From Escherichia phage CMSTMSU, in the sequence record MH494197.1: 64,000 nt of DNA. One strand, given 5' to 3'. A model generated the notes under the pieces. That model saw only the letters and a list, made by a program, of their open reading frames with translations. It made no database searches and was not told where the DNA came from. Both the position numbers and the translations under genes were made by a program. Of this stretch, positions 7,306 to 55,935 are shown piece after piece. Position 1 is the stretch's first letter. Each line of letters opens with the position of its first letter.

Positions 7306-7306
7306 A

Positions 7307-10485: not shown

Positions 10486-10509
10486 CTTCGTTTTTCCTTT
10501 CAATCATGT

Positions 10510-11399: not shown

Positions 11400-11432
11400 C
11401 ATCAAATGTTCCTTCTTATGGAGAATCAAAAG

Positions 11433-12115: not shown

Positions 12116-12161
12116 ATGCATTTAAGCGTGGTGAACTATTACGTAATGGAGGATTTATCTA

Positions 12162-12476: not shown

Positions 12477-12487
12477 TGGAGTAAAGT

Positions 12488-13798: not shown

Positions 13799-13801
13799 AA
13801 C

Positions 13802-21878: not shown

Positions 21879-21905
21879 AAGGCGTTCTTCGGAACGTCTT
21901 TTTAT
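21879..21905 (+). terminator. Rho-independent terminator
   Basis: AGGCGTTC-TTCG-GAACGTCT hairpin followed by TTTTTAT. Confidence 0.55.
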
Positions 21906-21938
21906 ATCATAAATAAATCAAATGAATGAACGAATTAT

Positions 21939-23563: not shown

Positions 23564-23571
23564 ATAATTCT

Positions 23572-26150: not shown

Positions 26151-26159
26151 TTCGTTTGA

Positions 26160-30035: not shown

Positions 30036-30039
30036 TTAA

Positions 30040-31907
30040 AGAAAACAATACTACTGCAACTGATGATGAAGTTAGAATTATACTTGAAGTTGAATATGGT
30101 GTTTATTCATATCGCCATGTAGATGAAGATGGAAATCAACGATTCTACAATGACGCAATTCATGTATTGTCCGGTATGCGTGGTTTGTATGACAAAGATG
30201 CTACCGACCATTATGAAAAGGCTGAAGAAATACTAAGTAGAATGCCTATTGATATTCATGCATTTACTATGATGCCACGAAAATATGTTTATGTTAATGT
30301 TAATGGTGTATACGAGAGTATCCCAGATGACCAAAGCATTGATGATTTCATGGAAGACAAATTCATAACTGACGGTCAACTAGTTCAATTGGCAGAAATA
30401 AATCTTGATGACTTACCTCTTGATAGAAATAACCCAATGTACAGTGATTATCAGCACATCCTAGATAGCATCACCGATGCTAAGTACTACGATGATATGA
30501 ATGCATTTGATAACCTAGCACTTGAATCACAAACTTCCGAGTTAAAATGGGAAGTTGAAGGTGACGAAGTAGATCCGTACATAATCGACATTTCTGATAT
30601 TAACCCATCAGGAAGAAAGATTGGTCAGATTCGCTTCACAGTTGATGGTTATGGATTCAATAGTGTTTCACTAGTTCAATTGAGAGACAATAGTAGATAT
30701 AAAACTGAAGGTATGGTTATTATCAACCCTTATAAAACAACAGAAGCAATTGTTAGTATTCCTTCTTACGCTAAGATTGAAAATGATATTAGTAAATCAT
30801 ACAGTAAGTATGATGAAAAATACTTCTATAAAATTAAATCAATTGTTAGTGATACAGAAGCTGAAGTAATTGACAATACCCTATCTGATGGTGATAAGGT
30901 TATGATATTCACAACTGATGGTGAAGATTATGTGAGATACCAAAACAATGCATGGGAAACCATCTTGAGTGTATCAAAAATCAAAACTGACACCACACCA
31001 ACCTTGTACACAGTAAGAAACACTGCGAACGGAACTGTAGAACTACTAGATAGTACTGGAGTTGTACTTCGTTATGATAACATCACTAAACAACAACAGA
31101 ATGAACCAGCAATACCTCTAGCATTGAACATCGTTCGTATTAGAACCTTTGCTGATCCAGAATTCTTGGTTGATGGTGTTAAGTTGTATGAAACAAATAG
31201 AAACTATGCTATCGACGCAATGAACTATGAAGTATTCTACGACACAACACTATACGGTGGTTCTTATAATGATGGAATTACACCAGATGACGTTGATGTT
31301 TGGGTAGTGTCTAACGAGATATTTGAAGTTGATGGTGTTACCATTGATAACGGATATAACTTACCAATTACTGGTGCAGGTGTTCTTAGTGAGTTAGTGA
31401 GAACCAAAATGACTGATAGTGTGGAAATTAACGTGTTCGAGTATGATGTTGGTATTATTCAACCAGTACTGAATACTGAAGGGGTATGGGAATATGCATA
31501 TCCACTAGTTAGTGATACATATATTGGTGTAGTTGGTGGAACAGTAACTAACATTACTGCTATCAGTGAAGAAAATGCTACTTATGTTTCACAACCAGAT
31601 TCAGTTAGTCCATATAGTGTTACTAATAATGTTCTATCTGGTGCTGGTGCAAGTATGAATGATATTATTTCTCTTGGTTTTGAAAAAGTTGAAGTACGTT
31701 TTGCAAATAACTACTCCGTGGGTAATGTATAGTGCAGAACACGACTTTAAAGAGAATGTGACATATTCATTTAATGGCTTGAACTTAGGTAAAGTTAATT
31801 TACTAAAACGTTATAGTGTTAACAGTTATCCAATCGAACTATCTGTTTACTCCGATAGTTTGCAAATAAGTGGTAATGACATTAAAAATCTATTAGAAGT
31901 TAAATAA
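30040..31907 (+). CDS. Baseplate/fiber structural protein segment (boundaries uncertain)
   Basis: ORF 30167..31732 (521 aa) extended upstream and downstream (31659..31907) by frame switches; ends at terminator. Confidence 0.4.
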
Positions 31908-31938: not shown

Positions 31939-34216
31939 TTACGCAATAACTTTTTCTATTGCTTTAGTTCGTTTAGGTTTGATAGCCAATTTACCATCAA
32001 TCACATCAAACGTTACGTTACCACCATTAACCAGAGAACCACACAACATCTCTTTAGCTAGTGGAACACGGATGTTTTGCTCAATAGTGCGTTTCATTGG
32101 ACGTGCACCCATCCCAACTTTAACACCATTTGTTGCCAACCACTCACGTGCCGCTTTAGTCAGGAAACTTTAACTTTGCGGTCTTTGATTTGTTCATTCA
32201 GACTACCCATGAACTTATCAATGATGCTGTCAATCGCTTCGCTGCTTAGGTCTTTGAATGTCACAATACTATCGATACGGTTGATGAATTCAGGTGGCAA
32301 GAATGCTTTAATCGCTTTATCTTGTGCTGTATCACTACCGCTCATCCCAATACTACGCTTGGTTGAATCTGCTGCACCAAGGTTAGTTGTCATAATAACA
32401 GTTACGTTATTGAAGTAAACAGTTTTACCTTGTGAACCAGTCAAACGTCCTTCGTCCAGAACCTGTAGGAAGGTTAGTAGTACTTTACGATCAGCTTTTT
32501 CGATTTCATCAAGCAACAGTACTGCATTCGGGAACTGCTCAATCTTGTCGAGTAGCAGACCGTTACCGGAATCGTGACCAACATAGCCGGAGGTGAACCA
32601 ATCAGTTTAGCAACAGTATGTTCCTGTGAAAACTCGGACATATCGAAACGAATCAGTTCAGAGCCAGTTGCATCAGCCAGTGCTTTGGTAATTTCAGTTT
32701 TACCAGTACCAGATGGCCCAACAAACATGAATGCACCTTGAACACTTGATTTATCACGCAGACCAGCACGAGCTACCATCACGTTATCAACCAGTTTCTG
32801 TACTGCTTCTTCTTGACCGTATACACGAGAACGTAGTGCATCTGGTAGATTACGCATACGTTCACTTTCAGTGCAAGCAACCACGTTAATATCTAGGTTT
32901 GCGATACCTGCAACAACTTCTTGAATCAGTGCAACAGTGATGATGTTATCATCAGTTTCACGAGAACGTACTTTCGCTGCTGCCGCATCCATTAGGTCGA
33001 TTGCTTTGTCAGGGAAGTGTTTGTTCTTCAGGAACTTATCACTTAGTGTAATAACTGCATCCATTGCTTCAGTACTGAACTCTACGTTATGGAAAGTTTC
33101 ATAAGTAGATTTCAAACCATTCACAATCGCACGGGTTTCATCAATTGTTGGCTCAACTACATCAATTTTCATGAAACGGCGAGTTAGTGCACTATCTTTT
33201 CGATGTTTTACGATATTCATCGTAAGTTGTTGCACCGATTACACGAATCTCACCACGAGATAGTGCAGGTTTGAGCATGTTACTCATATCCATAGAACCG
33301 TTGCTTGCTGAACCAGCACCAACCATAATATGGATTTCATCGATGAACACAATAGTGTTTTCACGTTTCTTCAGTTCTTTGAGTAGGTTATCGATACGTT
33401 CTTCGAACTCACCACGGTACTTAGTACCAGCAGTCAGTGCACCTACGTTCAGAGACAGAATTTCAACATCTTTAAGATGCTCTGGTACTTCACCATCAGC
33501 GATTGCCTGTGCTAGACCATCAATGATTTGAGTTTTACCAACACCAGCTTCACCAGTCAGGATGGCATTCTTCTTAGTCTTACGGGCCAGAGTTTCAATC
33601 AGTGCAGAAAGCTCTTTCTGGCGACCAATCATTGGTCAAGTTTACCTTCTTTGCAAGTGCGGTTAGGTTAGTGGTGTAATCTTCTAAACCTTTTGTTTGG
33701 ACGATGGTTGTTGTTGTGCCACTTTTTCTCCCCAGTTGGCTCATCACTAATGCTTTGAAGGTTGATTCCGTTGTCGATTGCTTCTACGTGCTTCTGTAAA
33801 GTTCGTGCTGCTTCAGTACAAGTGATACCCTCTTCACGCAATGCTGCTTCTAGTGCAGTATTTGGGAATGACAAACACTCAAACAGTACAAAATAAGCAT
33901 CAATTGAGAAATCATCACGTTTAAGTTGCTCAATTACTGATTTCTTAGAAAGTTCCTGAACTACACGGTTCACAAGAAGTGATGTGCGGTTCGCTTCATC
34001 ACCATCAGCACTTTTAGGTGCATGTGGAATGTTGTATTTTTCAGATATGCAATCAAACGACCGTGTAGGTTGTCTGCATCGATGTTCATATCTTCAAATA
34101 CTGCTTTGATGCTATCGATTGTCAGTACTGTAGCACTTAGATGGTCAATAGTCAAGAAGGTATGACCCAGAGAAGTTGCCAGTTCGTCGCTTTTTGAATA
34201 ATTGGGTAAGATTCAT
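31939..34216 (-). CDS. ClpA-like two-ring AAA+ unfoldase (Clp N-domain, D1, D2, C-terminal domain), frame-broken
   Basis: N-domain [12 protein letters not shown]; D1 Walker [25 protein letters not shown], Walker B IVFIDEIH; D2 Walker [19 protein letters not shown], Walker B MLDEIEKA; C-terminal [11 protein letters not shown]; about 758 codons as in E. coli ClpA; AGGAGA SD before ATG 34216. Confidence 0.85.
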
Positions 34217-34254
34217 GTATTCTCCTAAATGAGTAGTCACTCTAATTAATAAAC

Positions 34255-34282
34255 ATTATATCACATTCTTTGCGTTTGTCAA
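34255..34282 (-). promoter_or_regulatory. Strong sigma70-type promoter (TTGACA-16 nt-TATAAT with TGn extended -10), minus strand, upstream of ClpA-like gene
   Basis: Minus-strand TTGACAAACGCAAAGAATGTGATATAAT. Confidence 0.6.
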
Positions 34283-34325
34283 CAAGGTAAATAAAGATAT
34301 ACCCGATTTATTTTGGAGACAAACA

Positions 34326-35810
34326 TGGCATATAGAATGTGGAAAAAGGTAGAACCAATGATTACAAGTTCATTGACTCTGCCATAGCAGAACAATACAA
34401 CATCGGTGGTGTTGACATGTGGCTTTATGCCTATGTCGGACCAAAACAAGTCGCTGATAACACTGATTTATCATATGGCGGTGATTATTATGGATCAGAT
34501 AGTACCGTTGTGTCAAGCATTGGTGATTTAATTTTGGTGACACTCCAAGTCGTAACTATAATCTCGAAGCTATCACCTTAAGTTGCGTCTACCAAGTCCA
34601 AGAAGCAACTCCTGACTTGAAAATCCCGATTGTTCTTCAACTTTAACACTATGGACATCACAATTCATTATAACACAATGATTCAGCGTTTGGGAAGAAA
34701 AATTATGCCGTGACGTAATCGAACTTCCTAACTTACGTGATTTTGATGTACTTGGTAAAGATTCTGGTTTAAACCGCTTCTATGTAGTACAAGATGGGTT
34801 TAGAACGTCAGAAGGTTACTCAGTTACATGGCAACATCACATTTACAAACTCCGTGTTAAACCTCTTACTGATTCACCAGAGTACTCTGACCTTCTAGGT
34901 AACAATAACTACCCTGATGACCCAGATGATCCAAACAACGGCAATGGTAATACTGATGATGGCTCTTCAGAGAACAGCAGCTATGGTAATGAAATGGATA
35001 TTATGAACCGTATCATTATGCAAGCTGATGATGAAGTACCATACATTCATTTTACTAACGAACACTTGTTCGATGACAGACCAGATACTGTTGATTTGTC
35101 TAAGTATATGCTAAATGGATACGAATTACCAGAGGAACCAGCAAATAAAATGTATTTCCTCAAGAAAACTTACCCAGTACTGAAAGAACTATCTAATGAT
35201 ACATGGATTTCTGTAGAAGTCAAGCGTGGAACAATCTTTCCTCGCAAACCGATGGATGGTGACTTCTTCTTTAAAGAAAACGAGGCTGATGTCACTGGCT
35301 TCTCATTGTATCAATACGATAAATCTGCCAAAAGTGGCTAAATTGTGATGTTGAGTATACTACAGAAAGCACACCACCACAAGGGGTTGATGATTTTTAT
35401 ATTGAATACAAAGAACCACACATTTATCAGTACTTAAATGGTAAATGGGGAGAACCAGAAGTAACTTACGTTAATGACCCATTCACTTCTAATAGTGTTT
35501 ATGGAAATATCGATTCACAACAAGATTATCGTCCTAAGATTCCTCCAGCACGAGGTACAGTTCCTGAAGGTAACATGTTCCCAAGTGATGCAGTTGATGG
35601 TGATTACTACTATCGTACCGATTATACACCAGTAACCCTATGGGAATACAGTGCGTCCAAGAATTCTTGGGTGATTTTCGATTACGGTGGTAGAAAACCG
35701 TGGAAGGTGCAGATCTTGCTCTAACAGAATTTGTTAATAGCCCGAACCGTGTGCCATTACATGATGCAGTTAAACCTAATACAGTGTATCGTATACATAA
35801 GGATTCAGAA
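34326..35810 (+). CDS. Large hypothetical protein (about 495 codons), frame-broken
   Basis: GGAGA SD before ATG 34326; fragments 34339..34581, 34994..35341 and sub-60-aa pieces chain to stop near 35810; TAAATA core at 34290..34295. Confidence 0.4.
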
Positions 35811-41116: not shown

Positions 41117-43207
41117 AAATGGCAGTTTTTCCAATTTAGAAGGGACCATGATGCCAACATTCAAGTTGGGTAAACGTGGTGCTTCTATTAATTTTGTAAA
41201 CGATTCTGTCGCAATCAAAGACTTTTAGGCGAAACGTTCCTACCTGTTAAGGTGGGAACTCCTAATGACGATGATTCCGCAGTAAACGTTAGGTATCTTG
41301 AAGATAACCCAAATGCTTTATTTGGCGTACTTCCACCAACAAATGACATTGGTAAAAATAACAACACTTATTTTCAAGTTGATTCTGAGGGTATTGTTGA
41401 TATCTTTGCAAAACAAATGATGTTTGGGTAAAATCATTATACATTAATAAAAATGTCCTTTCCAGTGTTAACGGTGCTGATTATATCGGACTTATTACTG
41501 GAGGAACACTTCAACAGGCACAGTTTTACATAACACCAGAAGAGTTTGGTGCAAAGGTGATGGCATCACTGATGACACGGCGGCGTTAACGCATGTGCAG
41601 TTTATGCTAAAGAACACAAAATCCAAATTCAAGCTGGTGGTAATTATCGTATCAGAACTGCTGTTTATTTGAATGATATTCAATGGTTTGGTGGTACAAT
41701 CACTGGTAACGGTGGCACAATGGTATCGGTACTGAATAGTACAATCCAACAAGCAACATTAACAGGATGTTATTTAAAATTCTTTGGTGGTAATGGTAAA
41801 TTTTATTTTAATAAATTTATTAATATTACAAGTACTGCTGCATTTCTAATGCAAGGTATGACTGAATCAGGTACTATCGACTTCTGCTTTAATGAAATGA
41901 CACAATGTAAGTACGGTGTTCTTCAGCAAGGCACTGGTGAAAAATGACAGTTGGGCGTTATTCATACAACCACATCCATGATATATATGGTGATGCAATT
42001 GAATTGAACGTAGTCAACTCACATTACCCAGACGGATTTGTAATAGAAGGCAACTTGATTGAAAACGTAGATGGTACAAATGCACCAATTCCTCTTTCAA
42101 ACTGGGGTATTGGTATCGGTGTTGCAGGTTCTGGTCCTTATGATGTGAATGCTGATGATTCACAATATGTAAAAAATTCGTTATAAAAATAACCGCTTGT
42201 ACAATGTCCGTCAATGTATTCACGTTGAGTTGGGTAAAGACTTTAAAATTCTCAATAATGAAGTTTATCCATCAACGTTGGTATCAATTGGTACTGGTTT
42301 GACAACCGCTGGTGTAATTACTTATGGTTCTGTTGATTTTATTATTGATGGCCTATCTGGGCATCTATTAAATGATCCATCAGTAACTAACCGTATGGTT
42401 TCTATTAACTGGGGCGTAACATCTGGTAAATTTGCTGGTCCTCCACGAAACTTTAAATTATGTAATCTCCACATTCCTGAGTCGTCTATTATTGTGTATA
42501 CTTCAGGCTCTGATAATTGGCTAAATACTACTGAACTTTCTAATATTACATGTAGTAGAATTCAATGGCGTGGATTGCCGTCATCTTCCAAGTTTAATAA
42601 TATCAGTACTAAAGAACTTGATGTTATTGGACAACACCTTGCAACTGAAGGTGAAGGAGGGGCTTATATACTCGCTCTAAATATACATATACCAACTGGA
42701 CTAATTGTGTTGTTCAAGATGATTGTAACATATCAAAATATAGTTTCTCAAGAATGTATGTTGACCGTATTGACCAATCATCTAATAACTTTAAAGTAAC
42801 CACTGCAATTGATGGAACGGGTCATCGTGGACCTGTAGTAATACCTGTAGTTGAACAGTATTACGTGCCTTATGATGTTTTTCCGGTGGGAGATATTTCC
42901 CAACAGGAACAATTATCCATAAACAATCAGGTGGAAAATTTATTGTTACAGTAGGTGGTTCTTTCTTTGGTCGATATGACACAATTAGACAAACAGTTGC
43001 AGGACAAACTTATATCGAAGCATTGGGTGTATCATGGGGTGATAATCAATATGCTAAAGCTGCTGGAACCGAAATCCTAATCACAGGAGCAGGGGAAAAT
43101 GGCGAAGATTTAAAACATATATCACTAGAGCAGTTTATGTTGTTAATAATGCGTATCGTATCGATATTGCCGATCCGATTGTTACTGCTACCGCAGCAGG
43201 GCATTAT
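41117..43207 (+). CDS. Tail fiber/tailspike with pectate-lyase-type beta-helix (depolymerase-like) motif; frame-broken
   Basis: PEEFGAKGDGITDDTAAL motif typical of right-handed beta-helix polysaccharide depolymerases; N-terminus MAVFSNLEGTM restored by one homopolymer correction. Confidence 0.5.
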
Positions 43208-43262
43208 TGAAAGCTGCTCAACCAATAACATATATCACCCTATCTTAAAGGAGATTATAAAA

Positions 43263-44196: not shown

Positions 44197-44271
44197 ATAT
44201 TAATAACTAAATATATGTATATTAACAAGGTCAAATGTATTTTATGCTTTTGCCTATTTGGAGGGAACTAA

Positions 44272-47200
44272 ATGTACTCGATTAAAACAGATCTAGATAT
44301 AACTGGTGGTGCAACGGTTGGTAAAGATCTTCTTGTGAAAGGCGATGCAGTATTCAATAAAAATCTAACAGTTAATGGAACTGTAACTTTTGCTGACGCT
44401 GTATTCACTGCAATTGAAGCAGGAACTGTAGACATTTCATCTACACTAGATGTTGCTGGTAAAGCATCATTGAATGGTGGAATTGAAGTTCATGGTAATT
44501 CCGTAATTGGTAATTTGCCTGTTGGCTCTGATACTGCAACGATTAATTCTAATGCACAATTCCAAAGCCCAGTATCAATGGCAGGTAACCTAACACAAAC
44601 CGCTGGCACTGCTGTACTAAAAGATACCCAAGTGGCATCAATGGATGTTCTTGGAACTTCTTCATTTAAAGGTAATATTACTGCTGAAACTGGCACTACC
44701 GCAGCATTTGACAAAATAACTGCAACTGATGCAACATTCACAAACACTGCAACTACTGATATCACATCAACTGGAACTGCAAACTTTAAAGATGTGAATA
44801 TTTCCGGTACACTAGGTGGAACATTTAGTCTATCTGATGTTAATGCAACAACTCTAACTGTTTCTGGTTTAACCAGTCTACAAGGTGGTGTTACATTAGG
44901 TTCCAACATTACTGGTGTGAATAGTAGTGCAAACTTCCGTGATATTAAAATTGGTTCCAATGCTGCAAACACTAACTACCGTTTGAGCTTTAACTATTCT
45001 GCTCCAAGTCTTCGCCCAACTGTAATTCTACAGAACGAAATCCAATCAGAATTGATGTCTCCAGCTACCCTAAGTGTATTGAAAACTGCATCTTTTGGTG
45101 ATTCGTCATTATCCACTTTTGGTATTACTGGTAATGGTCTAAACAAACTAGATTACCTAACAGTATCTGGTAACTCTGTTCAAGATCCAGCAACTCCACT
45201 ATTACAAGTAACTTCAGGTAAAACTAAAGTTCATGATTTCGAAGTAACAGGAACTGCAACTATTCCTAACATTGAAAGTACTGGTACTGCTAATTTTAAT
45301 AACATCAACGTATCTGGTACACTCGGCGGTACTTTCAGTCTTGATGATATTGAAGCAAACACTCTAACTGTTTCTGGATTAACTAGCCTTGTTGGTGGTG
45401 TAACTTTAGGTGCTGATATTTCCGGTGCTAATAGTACTGCTAATTTTAAAGCAGTAAGTTTAGGACAAAACGCAGCCGATGCTAACGTTAAGTATGGTTT
45501 TGCTTATTCTGCCCGGTGCTCGTCCAACTGTAATTCTACAAAATGAAATTCAGTCTGAACTAGTATCTCCAGCAGTACTAAATGTACAAAAACTGCTACC
45601 TTTGGTGATGCATCTCTTGCAACCTATGGTATCACAGGTAACGGTCTAAACAAACTAGATTATCTATCTATTACTGGTAATGGTACACAAAGTCCAGCTA
45701 CCCCACAACTACAAGTAGCTGGTAAATCAGTACTAAATGATGTTGAATTCACTGGTACTGTAACTGGTCTAACTGTTGATGTGAGTGGACAAGATCTAAC
45801 TCCTAAATCAGTAGTTGCTGCTGAAGCAATCAAAGGTCAAACCCTTGAATCAGTTGGTCAAACCACCGTAGGAACTAACCTACAAGTTGGTGGAACTGCT
45901 AATGTTGTTGGTGCACTAACTGGTACTGCTGCTACCTTCACTGGTGATGTAAGTGCTGCTAAAGGTACTTTCAGTGGTGATGTTAGCGTTACTGGTCAAA
46001 CTGTAACTGTACGTGATTTAGTAGTAACTGGTACAACTACTGGTGTAACTGCCCAAGCTGATGTTGATGGTCTTGATATCGCCCCAAATAAAGTTGATGT
46101 TACAACAACACTATCTGTTGCTGGGGACACTACTTTAGCTGGCCTAACTGCTAGTTCAGTAACCAGTACTGGTGATGTTACTGGTGCGTCTGTATCTGGT
46201 AATACAGTAACTGCGGCTGGTGCACTATCTGGTGGTTCTCTTGCAGTAACTGGTGCTGGTTCTATGGCTTCACTAACTGTTCCAAGTATTACTGGTGACA
46301 CTACTTTTGCTAATAACGTAACTATTACTGGAACACTAACTCCGAGTAGTATAGATTTAAGCACTACTGATGTAAGTGCTGCTTCTTTAACAACTACTGG
46401 TAACGTAACTGTTGGTGGTTCTCTTGCAGTAACTGGTGCTATTGATTTGTCTGCTGCTGATGTAGTAACAAAATCAGTTAGTGCAACTAACCCAAGTACA
46501 TTTGGTGTAATTAATGCATCTTCTGTTGTCGCAACTGGTGACGTTTCAGGTGGCACTCTAACTACTACTGGTGCAGCGAAAGTAGGAACACTAACTAGTA
46601 CTGGTGTAGTATCTGGTTCGCGTTTGTCTTCTGGTACTGCAACAATCTCAACTTCTGTAACAGTTCCAACTTTACAAGCTGAAGCTGCTGGTGCTGGTAC
46701 ACTAAATCTAGCAAGTAATGTTGTCGCGGCAAAGATCTAACTGTCACTGGTGTATTCAAACCTGAAGGTGGTCTTGACCTAACAACTGTTGATATTACTG
46801 CAAACTCACTAACTACTACTGCTGATGTTAATGTTGGTGGAAACTTAGTAGTTGATGGTACTTTTGACCTAAGTGCTGCTGATGTGTCTGTGAAATCTCT
46901 TGCAAGTGCAGAGACAATTACAAGTGCTGGTGTTATTACCGTTACCGATTCAACCAATACTAGTTCGTTACCTAAAATTACTTCAACTGATGCAACACTC
47001 TTTACAGTAAATGCAGGTACTATTAATGCAACTGGCAACAGTGTACTACAAAGTGTATCAGCTACTCAAGTAACTGCAACTAGTGCTGAATTGACTGGTG
47101 TTGGTCTTGGTCTTCAAGTCGATAATGATGCAAACGTTGGTGGTGCATTATCTGTTGGTGGAATCGCAACTGTTGGTTCTTTAACAACAACTGCTGCTTC

Positions 47201-49201
47201 TCTTAATATTGCAAAAATACTGCAATCACTGGTGATTTAGCTGTATCTGGCACACTAACTGCTGGTTCAATCGACCTAAGCAATACTGATGTAACCGTTA
47301 AATCTCTTGATTCACTAGGTAACGCACACATTGCTGGTGACCTAACTGTAGATGGTGCATTCGACTTAAGTGCAACTAACCTTGTAGCTGCAAGTCTAGC
47401 AAGTACTGGTTCTACTACTGTTGGAACTGATCTAGTACTAACAACTGGTGTTGTGACTGGTAGCCCAGCTATCTCTGGTAATACAACAATCGGTGGAACT
47501 CTTGGTGTAACTGGTGCTGTTAACCTAACTGATATTGTTAATATCGGTAAGAAAGTAACAGTGAGTACTGGTGGTATTCAGGTAGTTGATGGTGGTATCA
47601 ATACTAACACAATTAACGTTTCTGGTGCTTCTACTCTAGCAGGAACTTCCATTACTGGAACTTTAGGTGTAACTGGTGCTTCTACTCTAGCAGGTGTATC
47701 TGCGACATCACTAACAGTTTCTGGTGACAGTACTGTTCAGAAACTAACTGTCCAAGGTGAATTGATCCCACAAGGTGGTCTTGACCTAAGCGGTGCAGAC
47801 ATTACTGCTAATAGTCTAACTACTGCAACAACTATCAATGCAACTGGCCTAAGTACTCTAAGTGGTGGTGTTAGTACTTCTACTGTGACTGCATCTGGTC
47901 TAGCAACTGTTGGAAGTTTAACTTCTACTGCAAACGCATCAGTTGGTGGCAATTTGGGTGTAACTGGAACTCTAGATGTTACTGGTGCTACTACTGTATC
48001 TTCACTAACAGCTACTGGTGCAGTGAAAACTGGCACAACCCTAACTGTTGGTACTCCAGTTGGTGAACAACCTGAAACTGTACAGATCATTCCAGATACT
48101 TATATTGCTGGTAAATTGCGTGTAATCGGCGGTATTAACGCTGAAATCGACGTAAGTGGTCAAACACTAGAACCATATGCAATTGAAGCTGCTGCAACAC
48201 TATCTGCTGTTGGTAACATTACTTCTGGTGCAACCATCGTTTCTAAAGCTGCAACAATTGGTGATGTTGGTTCACAAAACAACAACCTAACTGTTAATGG
48301 TAACGTAGTAACTAATGGTGACTTCACCGTTACTGGTGTACTAAATGCACAATTGAACCAAGCAGATTCCGATGTAGCTGTTAAATCTTTAACTGCAACT
48401 AATAACGTTGCGGCTGGTACTTCAATCACTGCTGGAACATCCATCACTGCATCAGGCTTACTAAAAGGTAATTCGTTAGAAGTCACCACTACTGGTTCAT
48501 TTGGTGGTGCAGTAACTATGTCAAGTGGTGCAAACATCACTGGTACTGTTGGTATCACTGCTGGTGACCTAACAGTAGGTGGTAATATCTCTGCAACTGG
48601 GACTGCTGGATTCGGTGCAACAACCGTTTCTACCATTACAACATCAGGTTTAGCTACACTTGCAAGTGCATCTGTAACTGGTGCTCTAACTGTAGGTGGT
48701 ACATTAACTGCAAATGGTAACACTGTGATTGGTGATGCTGCTGCTGATACTTTAACTGTAAATGCAACATCGACATTTAAAGAGAACGCAACATTTGATA
48801 AGAACCTAACAGTGACTGGTTCTATTAACACCACCACTGCAAACTTCACCACAAACAACATGGTAACTAAGAAATATTCTGTTATCCCTGCTAGTGTTAC
48901 TGCTTCTACTGCTGCTGTAGGTGGTACTTGGACACCAGATGGTACTACTAACGTATATCGCTTAACTCTTGACCAAAGTGTTACAATGGATTCCATCGCG
49001 GGTCTAATTGGTAGTGGTCAAGCATGTTCAGTGTATATCTATGTAACTCCATCTGTTGCTGATACTACTTTCACCTTCGGTGGTGCATACTCTGTAGTTT
49101 CTGGTACAGTAAGTGCTGTAGTTGGTCAAACAAGTATTATCCAAGTAATCTATGATGGTTTCAGTACTGTGTTTGATACCTTCGTTGCACAACGTGTATA
49201 A
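44272..49201 (+). CDS. Giant repetitive fiber protein A (about 1640 codons), Thr/Gly/Val/Ala/Ser-rich, frame-broken
   Basis: ORFs 44272..45546, 45781..46740, 46884..47240, 47453..49201 chain; GGAGGGA SD; starts MYSIKTDLD; ends ...VIYDGFSTVFDTFVAQRV. Confidence 0.6.
45781..46140 (+). repeat. Segment of fiber A nearly identical at nucleotide level to 50701..51130 in fiber B
   Basis: GTGAGTGGACAAGATCTAACTCCTAAATCAGTAGTTGCTGCTGAAGCAATCAAAGGTCAAAC... present in both genes. Confidence 0.7.
48040..49201 (+). repeat. C-terminal module of fiber A, paralogous to 53860..55050 of fiber B
   Basis: Long near-identical runs, e.g. CCTGAAACTGTACAGAT...TTCACAAAACAACAACCTAA...CATCACTGGTAC. Confidence 0.65.
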
Positions 49202-49220
49202 CATTTTAAATTAATAATTA

Positions 49221-49250
49221 AAGCCAACTAAAATAGTTGGCTTTTTCTTT
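49221..49250 (+). terminator. Rho-independent terminator
   Basis: AAGCCAACTA-AAAT-AGTTGGCTT followed by TTTTCTTT. Confidence 0.65.
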
Positions 49251-49347
49251 GTATTAGATAATAGTGTTTTGTGAATTAAACTAAATATAAGTATATTAAC
49301 AAAAGATGGGTTATGAATATATAGTTCATCGTTATAGGAGGGACTCT

Positions 49348-52300
49348 ATGTACTCGATTAAAACGGATCTTGATGTATCTGGTAATTCCACGGTAGGTAA
49401 GGATCTTTTGGTCAAAGGTAATGCAGTATTCAGTAATGACCTAACGGTTAATGGGGAAGTGTCTTTTGCTAACGCAGTATTCACTGCAATTACCGCTGGT
49501 TCTGTGAATGTCACAGGTGCATTGGATGTTGCTGGTAAGGCAACCTTATCCGGTGGTGCTGATGTTTCAGGTGCTGCGACATTTGCAGGAAACATTACTG
49601 CTGCTGACGGCACAACTGCAAAATTTGATAACTTAGAAGCTAATTCAGGATCATTTAATTCTGTTGAATCAACTGATATTACTTCAACTGGCACAGCAAC
49701 TTTTAAAGATGTAAACATTTCTGGTACACTTGGTGGTACTTTTAATCTTTCTGATATTAATGCTACAACACTTAATGTGTCTGGTGCTTCAGCACTAACT
49801 GGTTCAGTCACATTGGGTGCAAATATCACTGGTCTTGCAAGTACTGCAAACTTCCGTGATATTCGTATCGGGCCTAATGAAGAAGGTCAAGCATATAGAC
49901 TAAACTTTGGTTACACCGTTCGGACAACGACCAACCGTTCTTCTACAGAACGAAGTTCAATCCGAACTAATGTCTCCTGCTAAGTTGAATGTTCTACAAA
50001 CTGCAACATTTGGTGATTCTTCACTTTCAACTTACGGTATTACAGGTAATGGTTTAAACAAATTAGATTATGTAACTATTTCTGGTAACGCAATTCAATC
50101 ACCAACCACTCCTTTACTTGAAGTAACTAAAGGTAAAACTAAAGTTGTTGATTTAGAAGTGACTGGCGTAGCAACTATTCCTAATATCGAAAGTTCTGGT
50201 ACTGCAAACTTTAACAACATCAACGTATCTGGTACTATTGGTGGTAGTTTTGATTTAGATGATATCCAAGCAACAACATTATCAGTATCCGGTGCTTCAG
50301 CACTAACTGGTGCAGTTACATTGGGTGCAAACATCACTGGTCTAGCAAGTACTGCAACATTCAAAGCAATCAATTTGGGTCAAAATACCGCTGATGCTAA
50401 CGTTAAGCTAGGTTTTGCATATACTGCACCTAGTGCACGTCCAACAGTCTTGTTAGCAAACGAAGTTCAATCTGAACTAATGTCTCCTGCTAAGTTGAAC
50501 GTTCTACAAACTGCAACCTTCGGTTCTGCTGCACTATCTACCTATGGTATTACTGGTAATGGTCTAAACAAATTAGATTATCTAACAATTACTGGTAACG
50601 CAACACAAAACCCTGCTACTCCACAACTTCAAGTTGGTGGTAAAGCAATTCTTAATGATGTTGAATTTACAGGTACTGTAACTGGCCTAACTGTTGATGT
50701 GAGTGGACAAGATCTAACTCCTAAATCAGTAGTTGCTGCTGAAGCAATCAAAGGTCAAACTCTTGAATCAGTTGGTCAAACAACTGTAGGTTCATCTCTA
50801 CAAGTTGGTGGTACTGCAACTGTTACTGGTGCATTATCTGCTGCCGCTGGTACTTTCAGTGGTGATGTTAGTGGTTCTAAAGGTATCTTCAGTGATAGCG
50901 TATCCGGTACAAGTGCAACCTTTACTGGGGATGTTAGCGGTGATAACGCAACCTTTAGTGGCGATTTATCTGCTGTAGCTGGCACTTTCAGTGGTGATGT
51001 AACCGTAACTGGTCAAACAATCACTGTTAAAGACTTGGTAGTAACTGGAACTTCAACTGGTGTAACTGCAATCGCTGACGTTGACGGTCTTGATATTGCT
51101 CCAAACAAAGTTGATGTTACAACAACTCTATCTGTTGCTGGTGAATCAACTCTTGCTGGTGTTACAGCAACTTCAATCAATAGTACTGGTGCAATTGCAG
51201 GTACTGCAATTTCTGGCTCTACTATTACAGCAACTGGTGAAATTTCTGGTGCATCATCTGTAGTAACTGGTCTTTCTAAATCTGGTAGCGTTGAAACTGG
51301 TGCTCTAAAGGCATCTTCTGTTGAAACTGCAATCATTAGCAACACTGCTGGTGTGTCAATAACAAACAACACTTCAATTGCAGGTAATCTATCTGTAACT
51401 GGAACTGTTACCCCGTGCAATTGACCTAAGTACTACTGATATTGATGCTAAGTCTCTAACAACTACTGAAGGTGCTAACATTGGTGGTGACCTAGTTGTT
51501 GCAGGTACAGTTGATCTAAGTGCTGCTGACGTTGCTGTTAAATCTCTAACCAGTACTGGTGCAGTTATTAGTTCTGAAGGTACAGTAAGTAGTGTTCTAC
51601 CTAAACTTTCCAGTACTGAAGCTAATATTACCACAGTAACTGCAACCACTGCAAATGCTACCACACTAAATGTAACTGGTACATCAACTCTAGCTGGTGT
51701 TAACGCTTCTGGTGCTATTACTTCTGCAACTAACATTACCGCTACTGGTGTATTAAAGGTGCATCTGTTGAAACTGCGTCAATCAGCAATGCTGATGGTG
51801 TAGCAATTAACAATAACACTACAATCACTGGTAATTTGGACGTATCTGGGACATTGACCCGTGCAATTGACCTAAGTACTACTGATATTAGTTCTAAGTC
51901 TCTAACCACAACTGAAGGTGCTACAATTGGTGGCGATCTTGTGGTAGCAGGTACTGTTGATCTAAGTGCTGCTGATGTGTCGGTGAAATCTCTTGCAAGT
52001 GCAGAGACAATTACAAGTGCTGGTGTTATTACAGTTTCGGATACAGTGAATTCTAGCACTCTACCAAAACTAATTACTACTGATGCAACTATTGGTGCTG
52101 TCCATGCAGCTACTATTGAAACAACTGGTTCAAGTACACTAAAACAAGTATCTGCTACTGAAGTAACAGCTACAAGTATTGTACTAAATTCAGTTGGTGA
52201 AGGTTTACGTGTTGACAATAATGCAAACATTAATGGTATATTAAGTGTTAATAATATTACTTCTACCAATGATACTATTGCAATTGCGAAAAGTGCTGCT

Positions 52301-55050
52301 ATTACTGGTGATCTGACCGTATCTGGAACTGTTACCCCGGTGCAATTGACCTAAGTACTACCGATATTAGTTCTAAATCCTAAGTACTACTGAAGGTGCT
52401 ACAATTGGTGGTGACCTAGTTGTTAATGGTTCAATTGATTTAAGTTCTTCCAATGTTTCAGCAATTACCCTTGCTAGTTCTGGTAATACTACCGTTGGTG
52501 GTAACCTAGTACTAACAACTGGTGTTGTGACTGGCAGCCCATCTGTATCTGGTAACCTTTCAGTTGCAGGTACTGCGGCAGTAACTGGTGCAACTACCTA
52601 ACTGATATCGTAAATATCGGTAAGAAAGTAACTGTAAGCACTGGTGGTATTCAAGTAGTTGCAGGTGGTATTAATACCGACGCTATATTAGTATCCGGTG
52701 ATACAACTTTAAACAACACTACTGTAAACACTACCTTAAATGTAACTGGTCAAAGTACAGTTGCTGCACTAAGTGCTGCATCTTTGAATGTATCTGGTGA
52801 TAGTACTGTTCAAAACTAACAGTTGAAGGTGAATTGGTTCCACAAGGTGGTATCGACCTAACTGGTGCAGATATTTCTGCTAATAGTCTTGCAACTGCTT
52901 CAACAATCACTGCAACTGGACTAAGCACACTAAGTGGTGGTGTAAGTACTACTAATGTTACTGCATCTGGTACAGTGAATGCTGGTAGTTTGGATGTTAC
53001 TAACAACGCAACCGTTGGTGGTAATTTGGGTGTAACTGGTTCATTAACTTCTGGACCATTGAGTGTAACAGGCATTGCGAATATTACTGGTGTAACAACT
53101 GTTGGTTCATTGGTTTCCGGTGCTGTATCTGGTAGTACTGGTACATTTAGTTCAACATTAGGTGTAACTGGTGCAGCTACATTTGACAATGACGTAACTG
53201 TTGAAGGTGTATTCACCCCAGCAGGTGGTTTAGACCTAACAACTTCTGATATTACAGCTAAGAGTTTGTCAGTATCTGAAACTATTCACTCTGATGGTGC
53301 AGCTTCCTTTGGTGGTAACACAACAGTAGGTGGTACATTGGGTGTAACTGGTGCAGTAACTGCTCCATCGGCAACCCTAAGCGGTACTGGTACTGCACTA
53401 GCAGTAACTAATAATGCAACTATTGGTGGTACATTGGGTGTAACTGGTCAAGCAACACTTGGTTCTATAGTAACTTCTGGTGTATCTGCAACAAGTGGCT
53501 CTTTCAGTACTACTCTTGGCGTTACTGGTGCTGCGACATTTGGAAACGATGTAACTGTAGTTGGAACACTAACTCCGGTAGCTTAGATCTAACTGGTGCA
53601 GATATCTCTGCTAAAACACTAACTCTATCTGAAACATTAAATGCGACAGGTAATACTACCCTTGGTGGAACATTAGGTGTAACTGGTTTAGCAACAATTG
53701 GTGGAACACTAACGTCTGGTGCAGTAACTGCTCCATCTGCAACCTTGAATGGTTCAGGAACTGGTCTAGCAGTAACTAACAACGCAACCGTTGGTGGTAC
53801 ATTAGGTGTAGTTGGTCAAACAACACTAGGTTCTGTTAAAACTGGTGCAACTCTAACAGTTGGTACACCATTAGGTGAGCAGCCTGAAACTGTACAGATT
53901 ATGCCAGACACTTATATTGCTGGTAAACTACGTGTTGAGGGTGGTATTAACGCAGATATCGATGTTGGTGGACAAACACTAGAACCGTTTGCAGTAATAG
54001 CATCTGATTCTTTATCTTCTGCTGGTAATATTACTGCTGGTGCGGCAATTATTTCAAGTTCTGCAACAATTGGTGAAGTCGGTTCACAAAACAACAACCT
54101 AATCGTTAATGGTAACGTTGTAAACAACGGTAACTTCACTGTTACTGGTGTACTAAATGCACAATTGAACCAAGCAGATTCCGATGTAGCTGTTAAGTCT
54201 TTGACTGCAACTAACAACGTAGCTGCTGGAACCACATTAAGTGCAGGTACTGCAATTACTGCTGGTACTTCCATCACTGCAACTGGATTACTTAAAGGTA
54301 ATACTTTATTACTACTACTGGTTCATTTGGTGGTGCAGTAACTATGTCAAGTGGTGCAAACATCACTGGTACAGTGGGTATTACTGCTGGTAACCTAACA
54401 GTGGGTGGTGATATCTCTGCAACTGGCACTGCTGGATTCGGTGCAACAACCGTTTCTACAATTACAACATCAGGTTTGGCTACACTTGCAAGTACATCCG
54501 TTACTGGTAACGCAACAGTAGGTGGAACACTAGCAGTAACAGGAGCACTAACTGCGAATGGTAACGTAACATTAGGTGACGCAGCGGCTGACGTTCTAAC
54601 CGTTAATGCAACTTCATCATTTAAAGAAAATGCTGTGTTTGATAAGGCAGTAACAGTAACTGGTGAACTAACCACTACTAATGCTAACTTAACTACTACA
54701 ACAGTAACTACCAAAAGTATGATGTAATCCCAACTCAAGTTACATCATCAGTAATTGCTCCAACCGGAACATGGACTCCAGATGGTACAAGTAACGTGTA
54801 CTTCATCACTCTAGACCAAGATACCACGTTGGCTCCAATTACTGGCCTAATTGGTGGCGGTAAAGCTGCATCAGTATACATCTATGTTAAACAAGATACA
54901 ACTGGTAACAGAAACTTTACAACTGATGGTACTTATGCTGTTGTTGATGGTGAACTAAACAAAACTGCTGGTAGCGTGACCATTTACCAAGTAATTTATG
55001 ATGGTGTAAGTCCAGTTACTGATTTGTTCATTGCACAACGTACTGCTTAA
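49348..55050 (+). CDS. Giant repetitive fiber protein B (about 1900 codons), paralog of fiber A, frame-broken
   Basis: ORFs 49306..49983, 49907..51424, 51836..52354, 52834..53586, 53745..54341, 54344..54727, 54796..55050 chain; AGGAGGGA SD; starts MYSIKTDLD; ends ...VIYDGVSPVTDLFIAQRTA. Confidence 0.6.
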
Positions 55051-55066
55051 TAATTATAATAAAAAA

Positions 55067-55090
55067 CGGTGTCATCAATTATGGTGACAC
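55067..55090. terminator. Stem-loop after fiber B (orientation ambiguous)
   Basis: GGTGTCA-N10-TGACACC perfect 7-bp stem; A-run upstream, no T-run downstream. Confidence 0.35.
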
Positions 55091-55114
55091 CATCTTAACA
55101 AGTGAGGTAGTTAT

Positions 55115-55891
55115 ATGTTTACATATGTAAAAGGTAGTTCTAAAGAAAATTATGAATTGGGTAACATCATCTCCAACCCAGTTGGTGTTAAGGGTTTAAA
55201 AGAACGCCGGGCAACTCCAGATGATGAACAAACATATCGTTATTTGTACAGTGATATTCGTGCACTTTATGGTATTTCAAGTAAAGATGGTTCTGAAATT
55301 GAACCTAATAACGCTGTTCGCAAAGAAGAGGGTTTCTGGTGGTTGGAATATAAGAATGTTGGTAATGTGAACGCAATTAATGAGAATTTGGAATATATTA
55401 AACTACAAGATAGTAATCAACCAGTCATCACATTCTTAGAAGAAGCAGAAGGTGAATATAAAGAGTTAACAGTACTGAAAACTTATAATTATGTTGATAT
55501 GGACATTGCAGCAGTTAAATCTGATCTGAAAGCACGCACAGTATCATCTCGTAGTGATCGTATTAATGCTGGTTATATGTTTAACGGTCATCGTTATAGT
55601 ACTGATCTAGCTGGTCGTCAAATGCTTCTTAATTATTATACACAAGTAACTTCCGGTTCAGATAGCGTTTCGATTTTCCTTGATGACGCAATTGTAAAAC
55701 TATCTGCTGCTGAAATGACTCAACTATACACTGAAGCATTTGCTATGGTTGAATCCCTATTTGCAGAGTGTAATAAGCAATGTGCTGACATTGATGCAGT
55801 TCCTGATGCTGATGAAGATGCAATTTATAAAGCACAACAGGCGGCTGTATGGGTATATGAAGGTATTGATATTCCTGAGCGTACTCGTTAA
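55115..55891 (+). CDS. Hypothetical protein, 258 aa, intact; possible fiber assembly/accessory protein by position
   Basis: Uninterrupted ORF between fiber genes; functional call is positional only. Confidence 0.5.
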   Translation: MFTYVKGSSKENYELGNIISNPVGVKGLKERRATPDDEQTYRYLYSDIRALYGISSKDGSEIEPNNAVRKEEGFWWLEYKNVGNVNAINENLEYIKLQDSNQPVITFLEEAEGEYKELTVLKTYNYVDMDIAAVKSDLKARTVSSRSDRINAGYMFNGHRYSTDLAGRQMLLNYYTQVTSGSDSVSIFLDDAIVKLSAAEMTQLYTEAFAMVESLFAECNKQCADIDAVPDADEDAIYKAQQAAVWVYEGIDIPERTR

Positions 55892-55904: not shown

Positions 55905-55935
55905 AAAGGTCAACTATGGTTGGCCTTTTCTTTTA
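55905..55935 (+). terminator. Rho-independent terminator
   Basis: AAAGGTCAAC-TATG-GTTGGCCTTT then TTCTTTT. Confidence 0.5.

What the first reader, a model, noticed from the sequence alone, without database searches (positions are those of the whole stretch)
44200..55100. Two tandem giant repetitive fiber genes built from shared and shuffled modules
Two adjacent + strand genes of about 1640 and 1900 codons each start MYSIKTDLD behind a near-identical upstream element (aaCTAAATATA[T/A]GTATATTAACA plus GGAGGGA). Both end with a similar C-terminal domain, and they share several near-identical internal blocks (45781 vs 50701; 46860 vs 51960; 47460 vs 52500; 48040 vs 53860) separated by divergent stretches. 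The proteins are low-complexity Thr/Gly/Val/Ala/Ser repeats with a roughly 14-15 residue period. This looks like a duplicated, recombining receptor-binding or decoration fiber locus; the repeat family is not one I can name.
Basis: seen in the sequence. Interest (0 to 1): 0.7.

Follow-up and report, generated by a model that had tools for sequence, protein, structure and literature searches.

The report
Duplicated giant tail-fibre genes, jumbo coliphage
The region holds two tandem paralogous genes for very long virion fibre proteins of a 121Q/RaK2-like jumbo E. coli phage, already annotated as tail fibres in near-identical genomes. In this window both genes are broken by about 15 frameshifts that look like nanopore sequencing errors.

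Summary
The window comes from an Asteriusvirus-type jumbo coliphage, 99% identical to phages WPEC5 and fEgEco12. Those genomes carry two intact tandem genes here, of 1644 and 1906 aa, annotated as tail fibre proteins.

In the window neither gene is an intact ORF. Gene A has 4 frameshifting deletions and gene B has 10, plus one in-frame 3-nt deletion. All indels against two relatives are deletions, at A/T homopolymers and at CCWGG (Dcm) sites. The 64-kb window has no CCWGG site at all, which is the signature of unpolished nanopore data.

With the deletions repaired:
- A and B are collinear paralogs, not shuffled ones. Their DNA is 72-90% identical in the best blocks, and the longest exact match is 76 nt.
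- Sequence periods are about 6, 11-12 and 30-35 residues, not 14-15.
- Both belong to the phiTE long-tail-fibre family (PHROG 4549). They combine a repeated ~170-aa module, a long shaft and a ~110-aa beta-sandwich tip.
- Orthologs were detected in phAPEC6 and CBB virions by mass spectrometry.

The locus does recombine: TH47 carries an A::B hybrid gene, vB_Ec-M-J has a replaced central cassette, and JP4 has gained modules.

Verdict: a real but ordinary phage fibre duplication. The open question is whether these fibres are the unexplained "hairs" seen on these phages.

The parts
44206..44227 (+). Upstream element of gene A (ACTAAATATATGTATATTAACA). It is near-palindromic (TAAATATA..TATATTAA) and a candidate promoter or operator.
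   Evidence: An exact match occurs only twice in the window, with 0 expected. It is conserved upstream of the single-copy gene in 121Q and JP4 at a different spacing, while the surrounding intergenic DNA differs. Its function was not tested.
44260..44266 (+). Shine-Dalgarno-like GGAGGGA, 5 nt before the ATG of gene A.
   Evidence: Read from the sequence.
44272..49201 (+). Fibre gene A. It encodes 1644 aa once the frameshifts are repaired. In the window it is interrupted by deletions at 45515 (2 nt), 45588, 46731 and 47213 (1 nt each).
   Evidence: The repaired ORF is 99.4% identical in aa to WPEC5 CDS0403. PHROG 4549, E 9e-182.
44746..45852 (+). Gene A: two tandem copies of the ~170-aa family module (aa 159-331 and 329-528), plus the junction motif VDVSGQDLTPKSV.
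   Evidence: jackhmmer domain hits; DNA repeat families D2 and D18; coordinate mapping.
48428..48462 (+). Crossover interval on the gene A side of the TH47 A::B hybrid, inside a 35-nt stretch identical between A and B.
   Evidence: Informative-site scan of TH47 against A and B; exact-match list.
48872..49198 (+). Gene A C-terminal tip domain (aa 1536-1644). It is divergent: 55% identical to the B tip.
   Evidence: It is homologous to the modelled B tip (alignment A2).
49220..49244 (+). Intrinsic-terminator-like hairpin after gene A (11-bp stem followed by a T-rich tail).
49280..49301 (+). Upstream element of gene B (ACTAAATATAAGTATATTAACA).
49337..49343 (+). Shine-Dalgarno-like GGAGGGA of gene B. 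Relatives read GGAGGGGA; one G is missing in the window at 49340.
49348..55050 (+). Fibre gene B. It encodes 1906 aa once repaired and is the ortholog of the single-copy genes 121Q gp571 and phAPEC6 gp256. It is interrupted by deletions at 49922, 51415, 51755, 51861 (3 nt, in frame), 52339, 52379, 52597, 52812, 53577, 54309 (4 nt) and 54713.
   Evidence: The repaired ORF is 99.7% identical in aa to WPEC5 CDS0404. PHROG 4549, E 1.5e-203. PDB 9cuy_g, E 1.4e-30.
49663..50770 (+). Gene B: two tandem copies of the ~170-aa module (aa 106-277 and 276-475).
50771..50989 (+). Gene B: run of 11-residue repeats (xxxxGTFSGDV; 33-nt DNA period). It is longer by 33 aa than in A.
   Evidence: DNA family D6.
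50727..53191 (+). Central part of gene B that is replaced by a divergent cassette (67-70% nt identity) in vB_Ec-M-J. The flanks are 92-96% identical.
53098..53834 (+). B-specific ~250-aa expansion of ~120-aa repeat units (NNATVGGTLGVTG...DLTxxDIxAKxL) that is absent from A.
   Evidence: DNA families D1 and D13.
54258..54292 (+). Crossover interval on the gene B side of the TH47 A::B hybrid.
54715..55047 (+). Gene B C-terminal tip domain (aa 1796-1906), a small beta-sandwich.
   Evidence: AlphaFold2 model with pLDDT 94-98 over the domain. It is 94.5% identical to the 121Q tip.
55115..55891 (+). Downstream 258-259-aa virion protein with a DUF4376 domain. It starts 64 nt after gene B with no copy of the upstream element and no terminator between them, so it is probably co-transcribed with B.
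   Evidence: Pfam PF14301, E 2.8e-9. Sequence read. A terminator-like hairpin follows at 55905-55928. The ortholog CBB_225 was MS-detected in virions (PMC5259590).

Best explanation
The locus encodes two paralogous structural fibre proteins of a 121Q/RaK2-like jumbo myophage. Fibre A is 1644 aa and fibre B is 1906 aa.

Architecture and assembly:
- Shown by homology: each protein belongs to the phiTE long-tail-fibre family.
- Inferred: each assembles as an intertwined homotrimer of roughly 100-125 nm.
- Shown: the layout is a conserved N-terminus (MYSIKTDL...), two copies of a ~170-aa family module, a long Thr/Gly/Ala/Val/Ser-rich beta shaft, and a ~110-aa C-terminal beta-sandwich tip. The shaft is punctuated by 8-9 'hDL(S/T)xxD(I/V)xxKSL' junction motifs.
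- Inferred: the tip contacts the host surface, probably a glycan.

Roles of the two copies:
- B keeps the genus-wide tip, 94.5% identical to 121Q.
- A keeps the same type of N-terminus but carries a strongly diverged tip, 55% identical to B.
- Inferred: the duplication gives the virion two fibres that use the same kind of attachment but have different binding ends.

Expression (inferred): A appears to be its own transcription unit, with an upstream element, an RBS and a terminator. B appears to be transcribed with the downstream DUF4376 virion gene.

Evolution (shown by comparison of genomes): the locus changes by homologous or unequal recombination among its own repeats. This produces module gain and loss, cassette replacement and an A::B fusion.

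Frameshifts: those in this window are sequencing errors, not biology.
For: Identity and intactness:
- The region is 99% identical to WPEC5 and fEgEco12, which have intact 1644-aa and 1906-aa CDS.
- Filling the window's deletions restores both ORFs at 99.4% and 99.7% aa identity.

Error signature:
- There are 65 gaps over 22.9 kb and 150 gaps over 38.3 kb. All are missing bases in the window and none are extra.
- They fall at homopolymers and at CCWGG sites. The window has 0 CCWGG in 64 kb, against 18 in the homologous 22.9 kb of two relatives.

Fibre family:
- PHROG 4549 matches.
- phiTE LTF, PDB 9cuy_g, covers both shaft and tip. It is a trimer, and its C-terminal two-thirds are predicted to be an extended beta-helix (PMC11972413).
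- The family module is present in every family member, in 1-3 copies.
- The AF2 monomer of the module has pLDDT 85 with almost no intrachain sheets, as expected for an intertwined chain.

Virion protein:
- phAPEC6 gp256, 180 kDa, gave 15 peptides, and CBB_226 gave 10 peptides. Synteny was confirmed.
- The neighbouring genes are baseplate and tail genes.

Tip:
- The model is confident.
- BFVD Foldseek gives 179 hits, mostly C-terminal ends of phage fibres.

Paralogy and recombination.

Transcription signals.
Against: - No experiment locates A or B on the virion or shows receptor binding.
- The N-terminus is not homologous to the baseplate-anchoring N-terminus of phiTE LTF, so the attachment site is unknown.
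- The B tip is more conserved (94.5%) than the neighbouring structural proteins (81-90%). That is unusual for a host-range determinant and would also fit a protein-docking role.
- Trimer state and length are extrapolated from phiTE (793 aa, predicted 512 A). No multimer model could be run.
- Electron microscopy of relatives shows only short (~29 nm) baseplate fibres plus long 'hairs', so a classical long tail fibre has not been seen.
Confidence: 0.75

Rival explanations
1. The two proteins, and their single-copy orthologs, are the unexplained ~120-nm 'hairs' or whiskers seen on these phages. The hairs sit in rings on the tail sheath (and perhaps the capsid) of phAPEC6, CBB and fEgEco12. On this reading the proteins are not baseplate tail fibres.
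For: - CBB hairs measure 119 +/- 10 nm, but the baseplate fibres only 28.6 nm, and the hair proteins are unidentified.
- phAPEC6 and fEgEco12 are also hairy.
- At the phiTE-derived 0.065 nm per residue, CBB_226 (1553 aa) would be about 100 nm, A about 106 nm and B about 123 nm. That is far too long for the short baseplate fibres.
- The CBB paper states that RaK2, which has branched fibres, lacks a CBB_226 homolog.
- The N-terminus differs from the baseplate-anchoring N-terminus of phiTE-type fibres.
Against: - The only structurally placed homolog, phiTE LTF, is baseplate-bound.
- The genes lie next to the baseplate module.
- Other large virion proteins of unknown role exist, such as the 3323-aa g328 / phAPEC6 gp245.
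- The length estimate is an extrapolation.
- GAP32 carries the homolog but has not been reported as hairy.
Confidence: 0.3
2. They are proximal half-fibres in the T4 gp34 sense, as the GenBank annotation says. On this reading the conserved C-terminal domain docks a distal partner rather than binding the host. The partner could be the downstream DUF4376 protein or the 654-aa protein.
For: - The B tip is more conserved than its neighbours.
- B is probably co-transcribed with a virion DUF4376 protein.
Against: - No sequence similarity to T4 gp34 or any Pfam fibre family was detected.
- The same tip fold ends many short and long phage fibres in BFVD.
- It also ends phiTE- and rV5-type fibres that are not followed by a DUF4376 gene.
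Confidence: 0.2
3. The frameshifts are real: the locus is a decaying pair of pseudogenes, or is expressed through programmed frameshifting or an alternative genetic code.
For: - Table-11 ORFs are fragmented.
- One 4-nt deletion at 54309 fits neither the homopolymer nor the CCWGG pattern.
Against: - The same deletion-only pattern runs through all about 61 kb compared, including the thymidylate synthase, baseplate and portal genes.
- Every one of the 18 CCWGG sites in the homologous stretch is destroyed, and the whole window has none.
- The interruptions are frame changes, not a single reassigned stop codon.
- Eight relatives have intact genes.
Confidence: 0.03
4. The tandem duplication is an assembly artefact, either a false duplication or a collapse.
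For: - The window is a low-accuracy assembly.
- TH47, an 'UNVERIFIED' record, shows one hybrid gene where others have two. That could equally be a collapse in TH47.
Against: - The A/B pair, with the same coordinates and the same 72-90% divergence, is present in WPEC5, fEgEco12, EC.P1, Ecwhy_1, WPEC3, BF17, Turkey3 and vB_Ec-M-J, from different laboratories and countries.
- A and B are too divergent to be a duplicated read pile-up: four-fold synonymous identity is 0.64 against 0.50 expected by chance.
Confidence: 0.02

Closest known systems
Long tail fibre (LTF) of Pectobacterium phage phiTE (phiTE_241, 793 aa; PDB 9CUY/9MJN chain g; PHROG 4549) and its Certrevirus/Vequintavirus relatives, e.g. 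CarlMeissner bas48_0040
   Same: - Detectable sequence homology (E 1e-28 to 1e-30).
- The same ~170-200-aa module.
- The same shaft motifs (xVDVxGxDIxPxSV and DLSxxD).
- The same C-terminal tip domain (35% identity).
- phiTE LTF is a trimer, and its shaft is predicted to be an extended beta-helix.
   Different: - The phiTE-type N-terminus (a helical bundle plus globular domain that binds the baseplate wedge and sheath initiator) is absent. The jumbo-phage proteins start directly with MYSIKTDL and beta-type repeats.
- A and B are 2-2.4 times longer, with 2 module copies and many more shaft repeats.
- The homologous parts of phiTE LTF (residues 213-792) were not resolved experimentally.
Single-copy orthologs in Asteriusvirus and Mimasvirus jumbo phages: 121Q gp571 (1841 aa), phAPEC6 gp256 (1841 aa, 180 kDa), JP4 CDS0665 (2129 aa), CBB_226 (1553 aa)
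   Same: - The same genomic position, between the 299-aa virion protein and the DUF4376 protein and upstream of thymidylate synthase.
- The same N-terminus, modules and tip.
- phAPEC6 gp256 and CBB_226 are MS-verified virion components.
   Different: - The window's clade has two tandem copies.
- B carries the orthologous tip, while A has a tip only 55% identical to it.
- Module and repeat numbers differ between all of them.
T4 gp34 (long tail fibre proximal subunit), the name used in GenBank for these genes
   Same: A very long, trimeric, beta-rich phage fibre protein encoded near baseplate genes.
   Different: No sequence match to gp34 structures in the PDB or to any Pfam family was found here. 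The annotation therefore looks like a functional analogy rather than demonstrated homology.
Trimeric autotransporter adhesin (YadA-like) head and stalk repeats, and bactofilin or hexapeptide beta-helices; some relatives are annotated 'YadA domain protein', 'autotransporter' or 'polymer-forming cytoskeletal protein'
   Same: Gly/Thr/Val-rich short repeats with a beta-strand alternation, and a ~6-residue periodicity like hexapeptide or bactofilin helices.
   Different: There is no Pfam hit to YadA head, Hep_Hag, bactofilin or hexapeptide families at E <= 1. There is no 14-residue period.

Membership tests
phiTE-type long tail fibre family (PHROG 4549) | Significant sequence match to the family profile or a family member | tested here: met
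   PHROG 4549 at E 9e-182 (A) and 1.5e-203 (B). PDB 9cuy_g at E 9e-28 and 1.4e-30.
phiTE-type long tail fibre family (PHROG 4549) | Presence of the ~170-200-aa family module | tested here: met
   jackhmmer finds 2 full copies in each of A and B and 1 in phiTE (151-355) and in rV5-type proteins.
phiTE-type long tail fibre family (PHROG 4549) | C-terminal ~110-aa tip domain | tested here: met
   phmmer against 1.84 billion representatives gives 32 clusters, with the match at or near the C-terminal end in nearly all of them. AF2 beta-sandwich with pLDDT 94-98.
phiTE-type long tail fibre family (PHROG 4549) | N-terminal helical bundle and globular domain that anchor to the baseplate wedge and sheath initiator | tested here: not met
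   Alignments to 9cuy_g start at chain residue 213. The jumbo-phage N-termini (MYSIKTDL...) form a separate class from the 'AVDQ(I/V)IxDS' N-termini.
phiTE-type long tail fibre family (PHROG 4549) | Homotrimeric fibre | not testable with these tools
   Only monomer AF2 was available. The monomer of the module is extended, with pLDDT 85 and almost no intrachain sheets. That is compatible with an intertwined trimer but does not prove one.
T4 gp34 long tail fibre proximal subunit | Sequence homology to gp34 | tested here: not met
   No gp34 chain appears among PDB sequence hits at E <= 1, and there is no Pfam hit.
T4 gp34 long tail fibre proximal subunit | C-terminus joins a distal half-fibre through a hinge protein | not tested
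Triple beta-spiral fibres (adenovirus fibre shaft, reovirus sigma1) | ~15-residue sequence repeat | tested here: not met
   Autocorrelation, Fourier and local-lag scans show periods of about 6, 11-12 and 30-35 residues. Lags 14-15 are not enriched (z -1.6 to 0.2).
YadA-like trimeric autotransporter adhesins | Pfam YadA head / Hep_Hag repeats (14-residue) and a membrane anchor | tested here: not met
   No Pfam match at E <= 1, no 14-residue period, and a phage genomic context.
Virion structural protein | Detected in purified particles | not testable with these tools
   Not testable for this phage. The orthologs phAPEC6 gp256 and CBB_226 were detected by MS, with orthology supported by synteny and length.

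The most novel reading that the evidence does not exclude
The giant MYSIKTDL-type fibres (A, B, phAPEC6 gp256, CBB_226) may be the molecular identity of the enigmatic ~120-nm 'hairs' that ring the tail sheath of hairy RaK2-like jumbo phages. On that reading, the tandem duplication with a diverged tip gives this clade two kinds of hair with different binding specificities.
Probability: 0.3. Interest if true: 0.55.

Novelty: new member of a known kind. Interest (0 to 1): 0.3.

Why it matters
In practical terms, the window is an uncorrected nanopore assembly of Dcm-methylated phage DNA. Any gene call in it is unreliable until it is polished: there is roughly one deletion per 220-350 bases, and every CCWGG site is corrupted.

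Biologically, these fibres are likely host-interaction determinants of therapeutic-candidate jumbo coliphages (fEgEco12, WPEC5, phAPEC6 and others).
- The family has no Pfam model, and no experimental structure exists for its shaft or tip.
- The comparison across genomes gives a concrete map for fibre engineering. It shows where these fibres tolerate module gain and loss, cassette exchange and A::B fusion.
- The length argument nominates a specific gene for the still-unassigned 'hairs' of this phage group.

Tried and rejected
1. Alternative genetic code or programmed frameshifting as the cause of the broken ORFs. Rejected: the interruptions are frame changes at deletion sites with a homopolymer/CCWGG signature, and they occur window-wide.
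2. A general late-promoter role for the upstream element. The 22-mer, its CTAAATATA core and a degenerate 19-mer are not enriched upstream of other genes in the window. The sigma-70 scan was below shuffle expectation.
3. The word-indexed homolog search was nearly useless on these low-complexity queries. It gave 4 weak hits for the 410-aa C-terminal query and 2 fragments for the module. The exhaustive phmmer search on the tip alone worked.
4. Pfam gave nothing at E <= 1 except a spurious MmoB hit.
6. No other paralogs were found elsewhere in the window.
7. The window sequence was not found among E. coli complete genomes.
8. A literature search found no paper assigning the whiskers to a gene and none describing this tandem pair.

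Full report
**What the sequence is.** Megablast of 44200-55100 against GenBank phages finds seven records covering the whole query at 96.8-99.1% identity. They are Escherichia phages WPEC5, fEgEco12, EC.P1, Ecwhy_1, WPEC3, BF17 and Turkey3. More distant matches (about 75%) are to 121Q, phAPEC6, slurp01 and JP4, the Asteriusvirus jumbo myophages of about 350-380 kb. In fEgEco12 and WPEC5 the region holds two intact tandem CDS of 4935 nt (1644 aa) and 5721 nt (1906 aa). They are annotated 'long tail fiber proximal subunit' or hypothetical. The rest of the window is the baseplate/tail/portal module of the same phage.

**The ORFs are broken in the window, and why.**
- Table-11 ORFs in 44.2-55.1 kb are fragments of 118-582 aa in changing frames.
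- Gapped alignment of window 38.2-61.1 kb to both WPEC5 and fEgEco12 gives 65-66 gaps. Every one is a deletion in the window.
- The remaining 38.3 kb has 150 more gaps, with 193 bases missing and none extra.
- The deletions sit at A/T runs of four or more bases and at CC(A/T)GG sites. The homologous 22.9 kb of the relatives has 18 CCWGG sites, while the entire 64-kb window has none. Homopolymers of six or more bases are depleted.
- This is the known signature of nanopore base-calling on Dcm-methylated DNA without polishing (my knowledge of the platform; the pattern itself is shown by the calls).
- Gene A carries 4 such events and gene B carries 11.
- Replacing only the missing bases restores both full-length ORFs, at 99.4% and 99.7% aa identity to WPEC5.
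- Pseudogenes, recoding and an alternative genetic code are therefore rejected.

- Both proteins start MYSIKTDLD.
- The 22-nt element occurs exactly twice in 64 kb, with 0 expected, each time followed by GGAGGGA.
- The element is near-palindromic. It is conserved in front of the single-copy gene of 121Q and JP4 at a different distance from the ATG, although the surrounding intergenic DNA has diverged.
- It is not a general motif of the window.
- A terminator-like hairpin follows gene A.
- No terminator and no element separates B from the next gene, a DUF4376 virion protein. A terminator follows that gene.
- Composition is T 17.6%, G 12-13%, A 11%, V 10-11%, S 10.5%.
- A global protein alignment shows strict collinearity, with local identity of about 40-95% over most of the length and lower values in the divergent stretches. 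There are three length differences: a 53-aa segment only in A, 33 aa (three 11-mers) only in B, and a ~250-aa repeat expansion only in B. Nothing is shuffled.
- Autocorrelation and Fourier analysis give periods of about 2 and 5.7-6.1 residues, with lags 11-12. Local scans give 6/12, 11/22/33 and 30/35. Lags 14-15 are at or below background.

**What the proteins are.**
- Pfam finds nothing. PHROGs places both in phrog_4549, 'tail fiber protein'.
- The only solved relative is chain g of 9CUY/9MJN, the 793-aa long tail fibre of Pectobacterium phage phiTE. It aligns to the shaft and to the C-terminal ~110 aa.
- The phiTE paper models only residues 14-171: a trimer with a helical bundle bound to the wedge and sheath initiator. 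It predicts the rest to be a 'highly extended beta-helix', 512 A in total (PMC11972413).
- The region homologous to A and B lies in that unmodelled part, and the N-terminal anchor is not shared.
- An exhaustive phmmer search with the last 148 aa of B against 1.84 billion representatives finds only 32 clusters. The match lies at or near the C-terminal end in nearly all of these proteins, which range from 116 to 2120 aa (most over 480 aa). Their N-termini fall into two classes: MYSIKTDL (jumbo phages) and the phiTE/rV5 helical type.
- An AF2 model from this alignment is confident (pLDDT 94-98 for the domain) and is a small beta-sandwich.
- Foldseek against BFVD gives 179 hits at E <= 1e-3, overwhelmingly phage fibre proteins.
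- A ~170-200-aa module (B 106-277 and 276-475) is found in every family member: once in phiTE- and rV5-type fibres and one to three times in the jumbo-phage proteins.
- The module's AF2 monomer is extended, with pLDDT 85 and virtually no intrachain sheet, and it has no PDB fold match. That is what one expects of a chain that only folds as an intertwined trimer, but it does not prove it.
- A 13-residue motif, hDL(S/T)xxD(I/V)xxKSL, recurs 8-9 times per protein.

**Virion evidence.**
- phAPEC6 gp256 lies at the syntenic position and is 1841 aa. The phAPEC6 proteome lists gp256 as 'tail fiber protein', 180.38 kDa, with 15 unique peptides.
- CBB_226 is the syntenic 1553-aa ortholog and was also detected by MS.
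- The flanking genes are virion proteins too, including a colanidase-like tailspike upstream.

**Evolution of the locus.**
- 121Q and phAPEC6 have one gene, as does JP4. JP4's gene is nearly identical to 121Q's over most of its length, apart from two insertions: a third ~170-aa module and a ~118-aa shaft unit.
- B is the ortholog of the single-copy gene at its 3' end, with a tip 94.5% identical to 121Q. That exceeds the 81-90% of the neighbouring proteins.
- A's tip is an outlier at 55% identity. The B tip is closer to tips from more distant lineages (73% and 67%) than it is to A's tip.
- Four-fold synonymous third-position identity between A and B is 0.64 overall, against 0.50 expected from codon usage alone.
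- It rises to 0.82 in the pre-tip block (74/90, Fisher p = 1e-4) and falls to 0.38 in the tip (16/42, p = 4e-4).
- The duplication is therefore old, with later homogenisation of the pre-tip block and an ancient or imported tip in A.
- TH47 has a single 1652-aa hybrid gene, A-type up to A nt ~4161-4197 and B-type thereafter. The switch falls in a 35-nt stretch identical between A and B.
- This is either a natural unequal crossover or, since the record is 'UNVERIFIED', an assembly collapse.
- In vB_Ec-M-J the central 2.5 kb of B is replaced by a cassette only 67-70% identical, between flanks of 92-96%.

**How it probably works.**
- Shown: these are two paralogous members of a phage fibre family whose orthologs are in virions. 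They share an N-terminus and modules, and their tips differ.
- Inferred: they are homotrimeric intertwined fibres of about 100-125 nm. The figure is scaled from phiTE at 0.065 nm per residue. They would be anchored by the N-terminus and bind a host surface structure, plausibly a glycan, through the tip, with A and B providing two specificities.
- The unusually high conservation of the B tip keeps open a gp34-like docking role.
- Relatives show only ~29-nm baseplate fibres plus ~119-nm sheath 'hairs' of unknown composition. That keeps open the more interesting reading that these proteins are the hairs.

**Verdict.** This is a real feature, correctly recognised as a duplicated fibre locus, but ordinary in kind and already annotated in near-identical genomes.

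Noticed in passing
window 1-64000: The whole window lacks CCWGG (0 sites, against 18 in 22.9 kb of relatives). It is missing about 280 bases relative to relatives, with no insertions. This looks like an unpolished nanopore assembly of Dcm-methylated DNA, and nearly every long gene in the window is fragmented by it.
   Followed up: yes
window ~21900-31900 (+): Fragments (ORFs 21939.., 23898-26150, 27786-30035, 30167-31732) of a single giant gene. It is homologous to fEgEco12 g328 (9972 nt, 3323 aa, hypothetical) and lies next to the baseplate wedge gene. It is probably the counterpart of the 382-kDa MS-detected phAPEC6 gp245. Its function is unknown, and it is another candidate for unusual virion appendages.
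   Followed up: partly
window 55115-55891 (+): A 258-259-aa DUF4376 protein sits immediately downstream of fibre B, apparently in the same transcription unit. Its CBB ortholog was abundant in virions (68% coverage). It could be a fibre partner, adaptor or chaperone.
   Followed up: partly
window ~41120-43250 (+): A colanic-acid-degrading, tailspike-like 713-aa protein (PHROG 6117, with weak pectate-lyase and endosialidase N-terminal hits) lies two genes upstream of the fibres. It is split in vB_Ec-M-J and truncated in JP4.
   Followed up: partly
window ~32100-34400 (-): The locally highest G+C in the window (0.42 against about 0.36) coincides with a ClpA/B-like 'ATP-dependent Clp protease ATP-binding subunit' gene embedded in the tail module.
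   Followed up: no
window 54309: A 4-nt deletion (GAAG) in gene B relative to both relatives fits neither the homopolymer nor the CCWGG error pattern. It could be a genuine difference or another base-calling context.
   Followed up: no
L006 (TH47, MT446416) 9000-14100: This 'UNVERIFIED' GenBank record carries one in-frame A::B hybrid fibre gene (1652 aa) instead of two genes. It is either a natural recombinant or an assembly collapse.
   Followed up: partly
L003 (vB_Ec-M-J) 5072-9992: Gene A is annotated as two CDS (1049 + 582 aa) in this record. The two pieces are 99% identical to the window's A, so this is probably a frameshift error in that record too.
   Followed up: partly
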